Shown here: positions 61,901 through 62,913 of the stretch, piece by piece
Layout of the letters: each line of letters begins with the position of its first letter
How positions within the stretch are numbered: position 1 is the first letter of the stretch
Source: Balanoglossus misakiensis
Lineage: Eukaryota; Animalia; Hemichordata
Assembly: GCA_040954595.2 (NCBI GenBank)
Contig: CM082578.2
Coordinates: 7,487,519-7,551,518, forward strand
DNA length: 64,000 nt
Reading direction: 5' to 3'
Notes under the pieces: model-generated
Told to the model about the DNA's origin: nothing
Seen by the model: only the letters and a program-made list of their open reading frames with translations
The model's database searches: none
Made by a program: the position numbers and the translations under genes

Positions 61901-62913
61901 AAAGGTGGCGCTTCACGGTCTTTGTTCCCCGTAAGTAGGCAAAGTAACAGTCCCTCCACACAAGGGGGACTGTGGTACTAAGCATGCCGAAATTAATAAT
62001 CCACGATATAAGGTGTGTTTTTTGTGGTTTACGATCGAGGTGGCGGGCTTCTTCAAGACCTATCGATGGCGGGAAATATCACATGTCTGCAGGTTACAAG
62101 TAACGTAGATGTTGCACTAGAACGTATGGCTTATTAGAAACGTACCGTGACTGAGACTCACGAATAGGCACGTAACATATACCGCGAATAACATGACGCT
62201 GCAATGTAGAAGGCCATAGCCAAACATTGCACTGGGACTAAAAATTGATTACAAATTTAAGACAACTTTCACTTTTCGTATAATGAGACCATTCTTTGCA
62301 ATAGTTGTTCGATCACCCCCCCCCTTCCCTACCAAAAGACTTCCACAATGATATGTTCTAAACAAATAACTTCTATCGAAAGGGAAGACCGGTAGCGTTA
62401 AAGAGAACATCTTTGGGGTCCCAGAACTTCGGGAAGGGAGACAGCACCACCCGAAGTGGCAGCCGAGAGAGTCAATATTTGAGGAAGACCGCGTTTAGCG
62501 GGAGAGCTGTAGATCCAGGTAAGTTTTTTCACAGACTGAAAGAATTTTTTGTCACCGTCTGCTCCTTTCTAGTAACACAAGTTACACAACAACGGGAACC
62601 AGTGTTCAAAGTCTGAAATTATGAGAACAGGCTGGTTCGCTATACATTGTAATGGCAAGAATACACATTGCACAATATGGACAACTAACTGCATAGACAG
62701 CATCAACTCTAAAACACACAAATGAACTTAGGTTTTATATATAGATGTTGCCTATGCTTAATGAGTTTTGTTGTTCTTGTTGTTGTTTACTTGTCAACAG
62801 TCTCGGGAAAAGTGTATGAATACAACACAGAGACAGGCGTGCGTCGATGGGCGGATGGGACTGAACAAGTAGACGACGGCGATATTTCGTTACGTGCAAA
62901 CGTGTTTCGGTAG
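40860..62913 (+). CDS. Gene C: long single-pass cadherin, about 2788 aa, about 23 cadherin repeats, membrane-adjacent domain, TM helix, CDHR3/CDHR4-like cytoplasmic motif
   Basis: 27 exons: 40860-40926 (signal MKKTLILILVIIFIQIGVISSD), 44134-44321, 44669-45033, 45205-45425, 46308-46547, 46723-46967, 47335-47506, 47947-48497, 48781-48877, 49177-49427, 49802-49919, 50120-50380, 50644-50877, 52599-52745, 52949-53713, 54209-54530, 54740-54849, 55252-56941, 57266-57507, 57784-58749, 59128-59452, 59895-60046, 60302-60479 (TM), 60932-61065, 61854-61930, 62383-62518, 62801-62913. Sum 8367 nt (divisible by 3). Many exon lengths equal those of gene B (240, 97, 251, 261, 234, 147, 322, 110, 242, 966, 325, 152). 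Confidence 0.9.
45493..45541. repeat. (GAT)n microsatellite
   Basis: Directly visible in intron 4 of gene C. Confidence 0.95.
45543..46117 (-). mobile_element. Possible retroposed insertion (poly-A-tailed fragment) splitting a (GAT)n tract
   Basis: T10 run at 45543-45552 with TTTATT at 45571 and 45601 (AATAAA and an A-tail on the minus strand), flanked on both sides by (GAT)n. No RT coding remnant recognised. Confidence 0.4.
45661..45842. repeat. Degenerate minisatellite, unit about 25-30 bp (CAGGGTTGACGGCAGAGATGTACTG-like), about 7 copies
   Basis: Recurrent AGGGTTGA core visible about every 25-33 nt. Confidence 0.85.
46118..46240. repeat. Long (GAT)n microsatellite grading into (GAC)n
   Basis: Directly visible; source of the poly-M, poly-S and poly-I ORFs. 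Confidence 0.95.
47752..47830. repeat. (AATC)n microsatellite preceded by degenerate (GAAT)n
   Basis: Directly visible. Confidence 0.95.
51177..51211 (-). terminator. Histone mRNA 3' processing signal: stem-loop plus purine-rich downstream element
   Basis: Minus strand reads GGCCCTTTTCAGGGCC-ACCACA (stem-loop 51196-51211), then CCGAAAGAG. This is the canonical metazoan SLBP hairpin followed by a U7-type histone downstream element. Confidence 0.95.
51240..51782 (-). CDS. H1: Histone H1 (linker histone), 180 aa, intronless, nested antisense in intron 13 of gene C
   Basis: Winged-helix globular domain HPKTLEMVVEAIKTIKDTKGSSVQAIKAFILSHY...ALKAGLDSGVLVRPKG...GATGRLRV, K/A/P-rich tail with SPKK and TPKK, stem-loop 28 nt after the stop. 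Confidence 0.97.
   Translation of the reverse strand: MTESAPVKKPKAAPTHPKTLEMVVEAIKTIKDTKGSSVQAIKAFILSHYPTVSPSHLTANLRRALKAGLDSGVLVRPKGSTATGATGRLRVGKLPEKPKKKPAKKKAPVEKKPVKKPKEKKTPKKAKDAKKSPKKPSAKKPEKKADKAKKPKKDVKTSAAKKTSKASKPKKPKAKTAPKK
51854..51956 (-). promoter_or_regulatory. Histone H1 promoter: H1 (AC) box and TATA-like element
   Basis: Minus strand AAGAAACACA at 51956-51947 matches the known H1-specific AC box; GATAAATA at 51861-51854 lies about 75 nt upstream of the ATG. Confidence 0.7.
52351..52541. repeat. (TTTC)n tract (52351-52450) followed by a (GAT)n tract (52470-52541)
   Basis: Directly visible; source of the FFLS-repeat and poly-D ORFs. Confidence 0.95.
60302..60479 (+). CDS. 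Gene C transmembrane exon
   Basis: PWYMMWWGILIICLLVALLAILVILFTVIACWCCKRHK: homologous to the gene B TM exon. Confidence 0.9.

What the first reader, a model, noticed from the sequence alone, without database searches (positions are those of the whole stretch)
62383..62913. CDHR3/CDHR4-type cytoplasmic motif on a 23-repeat invertebrate cadherin
Seen: splicing 62518 to 62801 yields AFSGRAVDPVSGKVYEYNTETGVRRW, which is invisible in the ORF track because an intron splits it. Recalled: human CDHR3 has FDGEAIDPVTGETYEFNSKTGARKW and CDHR4 a similar YxFNxxTGARRW. Ectodomain oddities also line up with CDHR3 as I recall it: a DE-x-P-x-F EC2-3 linker (DETPSF, DEAPLF, DEAPTF), a PENEF EC4-5 linker in gene B, and NDNxPxC...CxDxD Cys pairs. 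Inference: these genes belong to the CDHR3/4 lineage, the 6-repeat vertebrate proteins may derive from a much longer ancestor, and automatic Fat4-like labels would be misleading.
Basis: partly seen in the sequence, partly recalled or inferred. Interest (0 to 1): 0.75.

Follow-up and report, generated by a model that had tools for sequence, protein, structure and literature searches.

The report
Split WW-like tail on giant cadherin
The last two exons of a giant acorn-worm cadherin join to give a short C-terminal module that is conserved from hemichordates to molluscs and is likely a divergent WW-type docking domain; whether human CDHR3 and CDHR4 carry the same module could not be tested here.

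Summary
Exon 62383-62518 (CCAG|gtaagt) and exon 62801-62913 (aacag|TC) join in phase 1 and end the coding sequence of a 26-exon, about 2,780-residue, roughly 22-repeat cadherin (gene B, 44088-62913, + strand). The window comes from an enteropneust hemichordate.

The same junction appears in the Ptychodera flava isoform X1 protein model. An HMM built from mollusc tails alone scores the spliced window tail at 41.8 bits. Three environmental invertebrate contigs carry an intron at the identical phase-1 position.

The module (F.G[RK]A[VI]DP / .[ST]G..YEY[ND]T.T[GN].R[RKQ]W) looks like a WW domain that lacks the first Trp. WW is the top Pfam hit in 6 of 8 tails, always below threshold. 40 of 43 PDB profile hits are WW proteins. 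AlphaFold predicts three strands.

A 77-nt cassette exon (61854-61930) decides whether the module is made. Skipping it, as in P. flava X2, shifts the frame to an earlier stop.

The CDHR3/CDHR4 link stays untested, because no tool returned their tails. Gene B's EC1-2 exon matches CDH23 (39 bits) better than CDHR3 (18 bits). The neighbouring paralogue, gene A, lacks the motif.

The parts
44088..62913 (+). Gene B: giant cadherin. 26 coding exons were modelled, giving 8,346 nt of open frame and 2,781 aa. The start codon and signal-peptide exon are unresolved.
   Evidence: All 25 introns are GT-AG and keep the frame. The model is identical to P. flava X1 (P0121) at 1,969 of 2,804 aligned columns. 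P0121 has 22 Pfam Cadherin stretches.
59128..60046 (+). Two exons (59128-59452 and 59895-60046) encoding the end of the last cadherin repeat and a family-specific membrane-proximal domain of about 170 aa
   Evidence: No Pfam hit. A local jackhmmer finds the domain in 24 of 131 stored proteins: the hemichordate and mollusc relatives, one sea anemone protein and one unnamed protein. It finds it in none of the CDH23, FAT4 or DCHS proteins.
60302..60479 (+). Transmembrane exon (...PWYMMWWGILI...CWCCKRHK); ends in phase 2 (AA|gtaagt)
   Evidence: 81% identical to P0001
60932..61065 (+). First cytoplasmic exon. It ends ...RDGWGSNA plus one base (G|gtagac, phase 1). GWGSN is conserved in all hemichordate relatives seen.
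61854..61930 (+). 77-nt cassette exon (A)YRPHQHEDIRANIAKKGGASRSLFP. Including it sets the frame that leads to the module.
   Evidence: Splice sites were read. The exon is present in P. flava X1 (P0121) and absent from X2 (P0001). A join shifted by 13 nt (61943/62396) is equally in frame.
62383..62518 (+). Penultimate exon, 136 nt. In the main frame it ends ...AFSGRAVDP plus G (first strand of the module). In the alternative frame, entered when the cassette exon is skipped, it ends ...EEDRV with a stop at 62496-62498.
   Evidence: The main frame aligns to P0121 residues 2709-2766. The alternative frame aligns to P0001 residues 2689-2724.
62519..62800 (+). Phase-1 intron that splits the module between ...DP and the Val codon
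   Evidence: gtaagt...aacag. The position and phase are the same in environmental contigs L004, L008 and L010. Argopecten isoform X2 (P0130) diverges at exactly this point.
62801..62913 (+). Last coding exon: (V)SGKVYEYNTETGVRRWADG...ANVFR, stop at 62911-62913. It encodes strands 2 and 3 of the module, including the invariant Tyr and Trp.
   Evidence: 61-64% identical to the Glandiceps and P. flava tails. Columns Y, E, Y, T, T, R and W are invariant in alignment A5.

Best explanation
The finding is the real 3' end of a giant hemichordate cadherin gene, whose last two exons join to give a conserved C-terminal module of about 35 residues that is likely a divergent WW domain and would dock a proline-rich cytoplasmic partner.

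Shown:
- The junction is real and the module is conserved in hemichordate and mollusc relatives.
- A phase-1 intron splits the module at the same position in the window and in three environmental invertebrate contigs.
- A 77-nt cassette exon upstream (61854-61930) sets the reading frame. With it, the 136-nt exon is read to ...AFSGRAVDP and spliced to the last exon. Without it, as in P. flava isoform X2, the same exon is read in another frame and stops at 62496-62498, giving a tail that lacks the module.

Inferred:
- The fold is a three-stranded sheet. The strand-2 Tyr and strand-3 Trp, which line the proline-binding groove in WW domains, are invariant. The first Trp is replaced by Phe or Tyr.
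- The nearest sequence matches are the PRPF40A/FBP11/Prp40 WW domains. From my own knowledge, not from a call, these are class II binders of PPLP-type ligands.
- Alternative splicing of the cassette exon would switch the docking site on or off.
- The partner is unknown. Mollusc tails carry a conserved PPPY 47-55 residues upstream of the module; the window's tail does not.
For: Junction and gene model.

Orthologue with the same exon order: P. flava X1 (P0121), 66 of 113 tail columns identical. X2 (P0001) matches the alternative frame at 17 of 38.

Conservation: a relaxed regular expression finds the motif in 5 of the 120 proteins listed, two from Glandiceps and three from molluscs. It is also in P0121, P0129 and P0131. 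The mollusc-only HMM scores gene B at 41.8 bits, P0018 at 38.7, P0121 at 36.3 and P0002 at 20.6; the next protein scores 5.5.

Intron position: 3 of the 3 environmental contigs examined upstream show ...FDGRAIDP|G gt...ag|TG [ST]GRLYEY....

WW likeness:
- PF00397 is the top Pfam hit in 6 of 8 tails, with E from 7.6e-4 to 0.11.
- Profile A1 against PDB sequences: 40 of 43 hits at E<=10 are WW proteins. The best is PRPF40A at E 1.3e-6, then PRP40 at 7.5e-4.
- AlphaFold on alignment A2 gives strands at GKAV, IYEY and RRW, with pLDDT about 80 in the core.
- All 42 Foldseek rows listed are WW domains or WW-containing proteins, with rmsd 0.5-1.4 A over 23 columns for the top rows.
- The language-model atlas puts WW clusters first, at a score of 0.78.
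Against: - No tail reaches Pfam's gathering score (13-20 bits against 26.9), and 2 of 8 tails give no WW hit.
- The first signature Trp is absent. The Pro three residues after the second Trp is absent in the window (W-A-D-G).
- Only strands 2-3 (about 20 of 31 profile positions) align to WW domains.
- The AlphaFold model is of moderate quality (mean pLDDT 65.4, pTM 0.39).
- Foldseek E-values are 0.8-3, with none at or below 0.001. VIA-align found nothing above Z 2.3.
- The isoforms in P. flava are automatic gene models.
- Ligand binding is untested.
Confidence: 0.62

Rival explanations
1. The module is the same one that ends vertebrate CDHR3 and CDHR4, and this giant cadherin family is the invertebrate representative of the CDHR3/4 lineage. 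The six-repeat vertebrate proteins would have arisen by loss of repeats. This is compatible with the WW-like reading of the module itself.
For: - That is a hint that a real family member was recalled.
- None of the vertebrate CDH23, FAT4 or DCHS proteins retrieved has the motif (0 of the vertebrate rows among the 120 proteins) or the membrane-proximal domain. Those are therefore not the orthologues.
- A Branchiostoma protein groups with the family, so the family reached the chordate stem.
Against: - No CDHR3 or CDHR4 tail was seen in any tool output.
- Two length-restricted searches returned none (weak evidence).
- Gene B's EC1-2 exon scores 39 bits against CDH23 EC1-2 but 18 bits against CDHR3 EC1-2. 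CDHR3 is not among the 60 hits shown (of 146) for the first 400 residues of P0121.
- The family has about 22 repeats plus a membrane-proximal domain of about 170 aa. From my recollection of its length, CDHR3 has no room for such a domain.
- Gene A lacks the motif.
Confidence: 0.35
2. The conserved stretch is not a folded domain. It is a short linear motif, for example a Tyr-based phosphorylation or sorting signal, that is read by another protein. On this view the WW resemblance is a coincidence of a Gly-x-x-Tyr ... Trp hairpin-like pattern.
For: All Pfam scores are below threshold. The first Trp and the terminal Pro are missing. AlphaFold confidence is moderate and falls to 59 for the Glandiceps tail. 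No structural match is significant. The second atlas look-up gave no usable hit.
Against: Conservation spans about 26 contiguous residues with a strand-turn-strand periodicity. 40 of 43 PDB profile hits fall in a single fold family. Invariant Y, Y, N/D, T, T, R and W sit at the positions that are conserved in WW strands 2-3.
Confidence: 0.2
3. In this species the module is not normally made. The main transcript skips the 77-nt exon, as in P. flava X2, and ends ...EEDRV. The downstream exon would then be a little-used or decaying alternative.
For: The alternative frame is open up to a stop at the same relative place as in P. flava X2, and is 17 of 38 identical to it.
Against: The last exon and the main frame of exon 62383-62518 are intact. 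They are better conserved (66 of 113) and match mollusc sequences that have been separate since the protostome-deuterostome split. All splice sites are canonical.
Confidence: 0.1

Closest known systems
WW domain (Pfam PF00397), especially the PRPF40A/FBP11/Prp40 type
   Same: The strand 2-turn-strand 3 pattern G-[RK]-x-Y-x-[YF]-N-x-x-T-x-x-x-W is shared. The groove Tyr and the second Trp are invariant. Three strands are predicted. It sits in the cytoplasm.
   Different: There is no first Trp (Phe or Tyr lies two residues before strand 1), and no Pro after the second Trp in the window. Scores are below the family threshold. It sits at the very C-terminus of a transmembrane cadherin, and its coding sequence is split by a conserved intron.
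CDHR3 / CDHR4 (vertebrate cadherin-related family members 3 and 4)
   Same: Single-pass cadherins. CDHR3 EC1-2 aligns weakly to the same EC1-2 region of gene B (E 0.026).
   Different: Six repeats against about 22. No membrane-proximal domain is recalled. CDH23 is a better match for EC1-2. Their tails were not seen here.
Cadherin-23 (CDH23)
   Same: Best solved match for the N-terminal EC1-2 exon (E 5.5e-9). It is a long, multi-repeat cadherin.
   Different: None of the CDH23 proteins retrieved has the tail module or the membrane-proximal domain. They fall in a separate clade in the three-repeat tree.
FAT4 / Dachsous (source of the automatic names)
   Same: Many cadherin repeats. Pfam Cadherin_FAT4_N-type repeats score.
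   Different: No EGF or laminin-G domains lie between the repeats and the membrane. The tail is different, and they form a separate clade.

Membership tests
WW domain (PF00397) | Score at or above Pfam's gathering threshold (26.9 bits) | tested here: not met
   WW is the top hit in 6 of 8 tails, at 13.0-19.9 bits. 2 of 8 give no WW hit.
WW domain (PF00397) | First conserved Trp, 20-22 residues before the second | tested here: not met
   The alignments show Phe or Tyr (F.G[RK]A) and no Trp. The idea that the upstream GWGSN supplies the Trp got no support from AlphaFold on the Glandiceps tail.
WW domain (PF00397) | Second conserved Trp and the strand-2 aromatic (groove Tyr) | tested here: met
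   Y, Y and W are invariant in A1, A5 and A6 and align to the WW profile and to PRPF40A/PRP40.
WW domain (PF00397) | Conserved Pro three residues after the second Trp | tested here: not met
   The window has W-A-D-G. Some mollusc and environmental tails have Pro at +3 or +4 (W.RTP, W..TP).
WW domain (PF00397) | Three-stranded antiparallel sheet | tested here: inconclusive
   AlphaFold predicts three strands with core pLDDT about 80. The Foldseek top rows are all WW, but E is 0.8-3. VIA-align gives Z of 2.3 or less.
WW domain (PF00397) | Binds proline-rich or phospho-Ser/Thr-Pro peptides | not tested
   No binding prediction or experiment was run.
CDHR3/CDHR4 lineage | Homologous C-terminal motif present in CDHR3 and CDHR4 | not testable with these tools
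   No CDHR3/4 tail was returned.
CDHR3/CDHR4 lineage | Ectodomain most similar to CDHR3/4 among cadherins | tested here: not met
   Among solved chains, the EC1-2 exon scores CDH23 at 39.4 bits and CDHR3 at 17.9 bits, rank 26 of 63. Only solved fragments could be compared.
CDHR3/CDHR4 lineage | Six cadherin repeats directly followed by the membrane span | tested here: not met
The orthologue P0121 has 22 Pfam repeats plus a membrane-proximal domain of about 170 aa.
CDHR3/CDHR4 lineage | Shared intron position in the tail motif | not testable with these tools
   No vertebrate genomic sequence is on hand. The position is shared with three invertebrate contigs.
FAT4 | EGF and laminin-G domains between the cadherin repeats and the membrane | tested here: not met
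   The Pfam scan of P0121, P0018 and P0087 lists none.

The most novel reading that the evidence does not exclude
An ancient WW-type docking module, split by a phase-1 intron and switched on or off by a frame-setting cassette exon, ended a giant cadherin of the bilaterian ancestor. Vertebrate CDHR3 (the rhinovirus C receptor) and CDHR4 are shortened descendants that kept only this tail, so their unknown cytoplasmic partner could be found through it.
Probability: 0.3. Interest if true: 0.75.

Novelty: new variant of a known kind. Interest (0 to 1): 0.5.

Why it matters
Cadherin tails determine which intracellular machinery a junction or surface link engages. In this family the tail ends in a conserved mini-domain that standard annotation misses, for two reasons: an intron splits it, and it scores below the WW threshold. 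The proteins are auto-named after FAT4 or cadherin-23, with which they share neither the tail nor the membrane-proximal domain.

A WW-like reader built into a cadherin tail, with a splicing switch that removes it, gives a concrete and testable route to the partner of a whole bilaterian cadherin family.

My literature searches listed no paper on a cytoplasmic motif of CDHR3/CDHR4 or a WW domain in a cadherin tail (listings; passages of PMC6301718). If the CDHR3/CDHR4 link proves true, the same handle would apply to the little-understood cytoplasmic side of the rhinovirus C receptor.

Tried and rejected
- **Whole genome:** none is held for this window.
- **RNA evidence:** no RNA holder was listed for window:55230-58886, so the junctions could not be checked on reads.
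- **CDHR3/4 retrieval:**
  - The P0087 tail against shorter proteins gave 19 word-sharing candidates, none at E<=10.
  - Profile A3 against 390-2000 aa proteins gave 3 mollusc proteins only.
  - A metagenome pattern scan gave 17 loci, none from a vertebrate.
  - A supplement search of PMC12403849 gave expression tables only, no peptides.
  - Literature searches gave nothing on a tail motif (passages of PMC6301718).
- **GWGSN as the missing first-Trp strand:** in Glandiceps P0002, GWGSN joins directly to the last exon, and skipping both middle exons in the window is in frame. AlphaFold on the P0002 tail was of low confidence (59.3) and put strand 1 elsewhere, so the idea is not supported. MAFFT also misaligned the short GWGSN pieces, and that alignment was dropped.
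- **VIA-align wide search:** nothing above Z 2.3.
- **Second atlas look-up:** no usable hit (one search gave no answer, and one search failed on a length limit).
- **Membrane-proximal domain against PDB:** no significant match.
- **Earlier findings of this scan:** nothing on this genome, and only unrelated archaeal notes.
- **Module binding to the mollusc PPPY stretch:** not tested.
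Full report
**What is there**

The window holds two tandem + strand cadherin genes and part of a third on the minus strand. The largest exon of the downstream gene, which I call gene B, finds Ptychodera flava 'protocadherin Fat 4-like' at 68% identity, Glandiceps talaboti 'cadherin-23-like' at 60% and Saccoglossus at 54% (3,503 proteins at E<=1e-30 among 7,961 scored, 120 listed). The window therefore comes from an enteropneust hemichordate. It is related to P. flava but not identical to it.

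I guided a gene model with the P. flava isoform X1 protein (P0121, from the cluster look-up). This gave 26 exons from 44088 to 62913, all introns GT-AG, and 8,346 nt of uninterrupted frame. The model is identical to P0121 at 1,969 of 2,804 aligned columns. P0121 has 22 Pfam cadherin stretches and no EGF or laminin-G domain. The start codon is unresolved, because an in-frame TGA (44082-44084) lies just upstream of the first aligned codon.

**The observation**

The DNA reads ...GAT CCA G|gtaagt at 62518 and ...gtcaacag|TC TCG GGA at 62801, with the stop at 62911-62913.

A 77-nt exon at 61854-61930 resolves this. P. flava X1 contains its counterpart (AYRPRRPEDVKANIMKKG...) and then the same order of pieces. 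X1 is identical to the window's tail at 66 of 113 aligned columns.

P. flava X2 (P0001) lacks that exon. It reads the 136-nt exon in another frame and stops inside it. The window's alternative frame does the same, with a stop at 62496-62498 and 17 of 38 residues identical to X2. A second in-frame pairing shifted by 13 nt (61943/62396) cannot be excluded.

**More than chance, and old**

- A relaxed motif search found the module in 5 of the 120 listed proteins: Glandiceps P0002 and P0018, and the molluscs Mizuhopecten P0081, Mactra P0087 and Gigantopelta P0104.
- It is also in P0121, in Mizuhopecten P0129 and in Elysia P0131.
- An HMM built from five mollusc tails alone scores the window's spliced model at 41.8 bits over residues 2726-2763, across the junction. 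The next unrelated cadherin scores 5.5 bits.
- A degenerate DNA pattern for the second half of the motif found 17 metagenome loci. Five of them (L004, L008, L010, L015, L016) are mollusc-like last exons.
- In the three I read upstream (L004, L008, L010), the preceding exon ends ...FDGRAIDP plus G, followed by gt. The last exon begins after ag with TG, giving Val and then [ST]GRLYEY. This is the same phase-1 position as in the window.
- Argopecten isoform X2 (P0130) diverges from its relatives exactly after ..AVDQ.

**What the module is**

Pfam gives WW (PF00397) as the top hit for 6 of 8 tails, always below the gathering score. The values are E 7.6e-4, 1.3e-3, 0.014, 0.019, 0.08 and 0.11, or 13-20 bits against 26.9. 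Two tails give no WW hit.

A profile of six tails searched against all PDB sequences returned 43 hits at E<=10. Forty of them are WW proteins: PRPF40A at 1.3e-6 and 9.1e-6, PRP40 at 7.5e-4, then WBP4, Pin1, FBP11 and TCERG1. The alignment covers the stretch from the Gly before strand 2 to the second Trp.

AlphaFold on alignment A2 predicts three strands (GKAV, IYEY, RRW) with pLDDT about 80 in the core, but only 65 overall. All 42 Foldseek rows listed are WW domains or WW-containing proteins, with rmsd 0.5-1.4 A over 23 columns for the top rows. Their E-values are 0.8-3, so this is agreement rather than proof. VIA-align found nothing above Z 2.3.

Of the defining WW features, the groove Tyr and the second Trp are invariant. 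The first Trp and, in the window, the trailing Pro are missing. I therefore call it WW-like and do not file it as a member.

By analogy it would bind a proline-rich peptide. The nearest sequences are WW domains that I recall as class II binders; this is my own knowledge, not a call. Mollusc tails carry a conserved PPPY 47-55 residues upstream. The window's tail has none, and the partner is unknown.

**The family**

A membrane-proximal domain of about 170 residues with no Pfam hit precedes the membrane span. A local jackhmmer search finds it in 24 of 131 stored proteins. These are all the hemichordate and mollusc relatives, one sea anemone protein and one unnamed protein. None of the CDH23, FAT4 or DCHS proteins has it.

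I built a maximum-likelihood tree on a three-repeat exon with 30 rows. For the outgroups the region used was the best-matching one, which need not be the positional equivalent.
- The family, including a Branchiostoma protein, separates from the CDH23, FAT4, PCDH16 and dachsous rows (support 93/91).
- Gene B groups with P. flava P0001 (97/90), then Glandiceps P0002 and Saccoglossus P0013.
- Gene A groups with P. flava P0068 and Glandiceps P0008.
- The A/B split lies inside hemichordates (99/96).

Gene A ends at 37758 with a different tail that keeps only ..ERRW. No second YEYN...W exists in the window. The module was therefore probably ancestral and was lost or eroded in the A clade; this is inference.

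**The CDHR3/CDHR4 claim**

I could not obtain a CDHR3 or CDHR4 tail from any tool. Two length-restricted database searches returned none. Both depend on shared 5-mers and on E-values for 5.8 billion sequences, so they are weak negatives. The exhaustive profile search was never accepted.

Solved CDHR3 fragments allowed one test. Gene B's EC1-2 exon matches CDH23 EC1-2 at E 5.5e-9 (39.4 bits) and CDHR3 EC1-2 at E 0.026 (17.9 bits, rank 26 of 63). CDHR3 is not among the 60 rows shown, of 146 hits, for the first 400 residues of P0121. The ectodomain evidence does not favour CDHR3.

I put the shared-motif claim at about even odds and the lineage claim at about one in three.

**Literature**

No paper on a CDHR3/CDHR4 tail motif or on a WW domain within a cadherin tail turned up in the search listings. 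Nor did the passages of PMC6301718 that mention the cytoplasmic domain describe one. Subscription papers are not covered by these searches.

**Verdict**

The module is best read as a divergent WW-type docking domain. The CDHR3/4 identity remains open.

Noticed in passing
window 51240-51791 (-) and 63728-64000 (-): A linker-histone H1 gene (Pfam Linker_histone, E 4.6e-23) lies inside an intron of gene B. The Lys-rich C-terminal part of a second copy lies at the window's end. Each is followed on its own strand by a sequence that looks like the histone 3' stem-loop (ggccctgaaaagggcc, near 63680-63700 and about 51200).
   Followed up: partly
window about 24283-37758 (+): Gene A is a tandem paralogue of gene B (orthologue of P. 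flava P0068 and Glandiceps P0008). It has the same membrane-proximal domain and membrane span but a different tail that keeps only ..ERRW and ends ...NQLDQF at 37758.
   Followed up: partly
window about 13700-24500 (+): This stretch holds an array of repeated exon pairs. They encode copies of the divergent N-terminal cadherin-like unit (C..TW...PY[ST]V.EN... followed by ..VGS..PD[FY]E[ST]...). They could be tandem domains of gene A or alternative first exons.
   Followed up: no
window 214-4443 (-): Part of a third cadherin gene lies on the opposite strand (Pfam Cadherin on three ORFs, E from 1e-14 to 4e-10).
   Followed up: no
window 44073-44090: Where the P. flava and Glandiceps proteins start, the window reads ATG ATG TTA TGA GGT. 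That puts an in-frame stop two codons after the ATGs, so gene B's true start is either in an upstream exon or disrupted in this assembly.
   Followed up: partly
window 61931-61943 and 62383-62395: Two donor/acceptor pairs 13 nt apart (61930/62383 and 61943/62396) give the same downstream frame but different linker residues. Sequence alone does not decide between them.
   Followed up: partly
P0081, P0129, P0130, P0131 (mollusc tails): A conserved PPPY, the classical WW-ligand motif, lies 47-55 residues upstream of the WW-like module in scallop and Elysia tails. The hemichordate tails have no such motif.
   Followed up: partly
window 61044-61058 and hemichordate proteins P0121, P0002, P0018: A GWGSN motif is conserved at the end of the first cytoplasmic exon in all hemichordate paralogues that carry the module. 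In Glandiceps P0002 it is joined directly to the last exon. Skipping both middle exons in the window (213 nt) would also be in frame.
   Followed up: partly
L001, L006, L007, L009, L014: Five metagenome contigs, up to 75 kb long, share an identical short ORF end GEAYEYNTDTKHSKWN followed by a stop. It is WW-like and of unknown origin.
   Followed up: no
window 46074-46262 and 52254-52584: Two long simple repeats lie in gene B introns. One is a GAT-type trinucleotide run that reads as poly-Asp. The other is a run that reads FLSF repeatedly and is followed by poly-Met.
   Followed up: no
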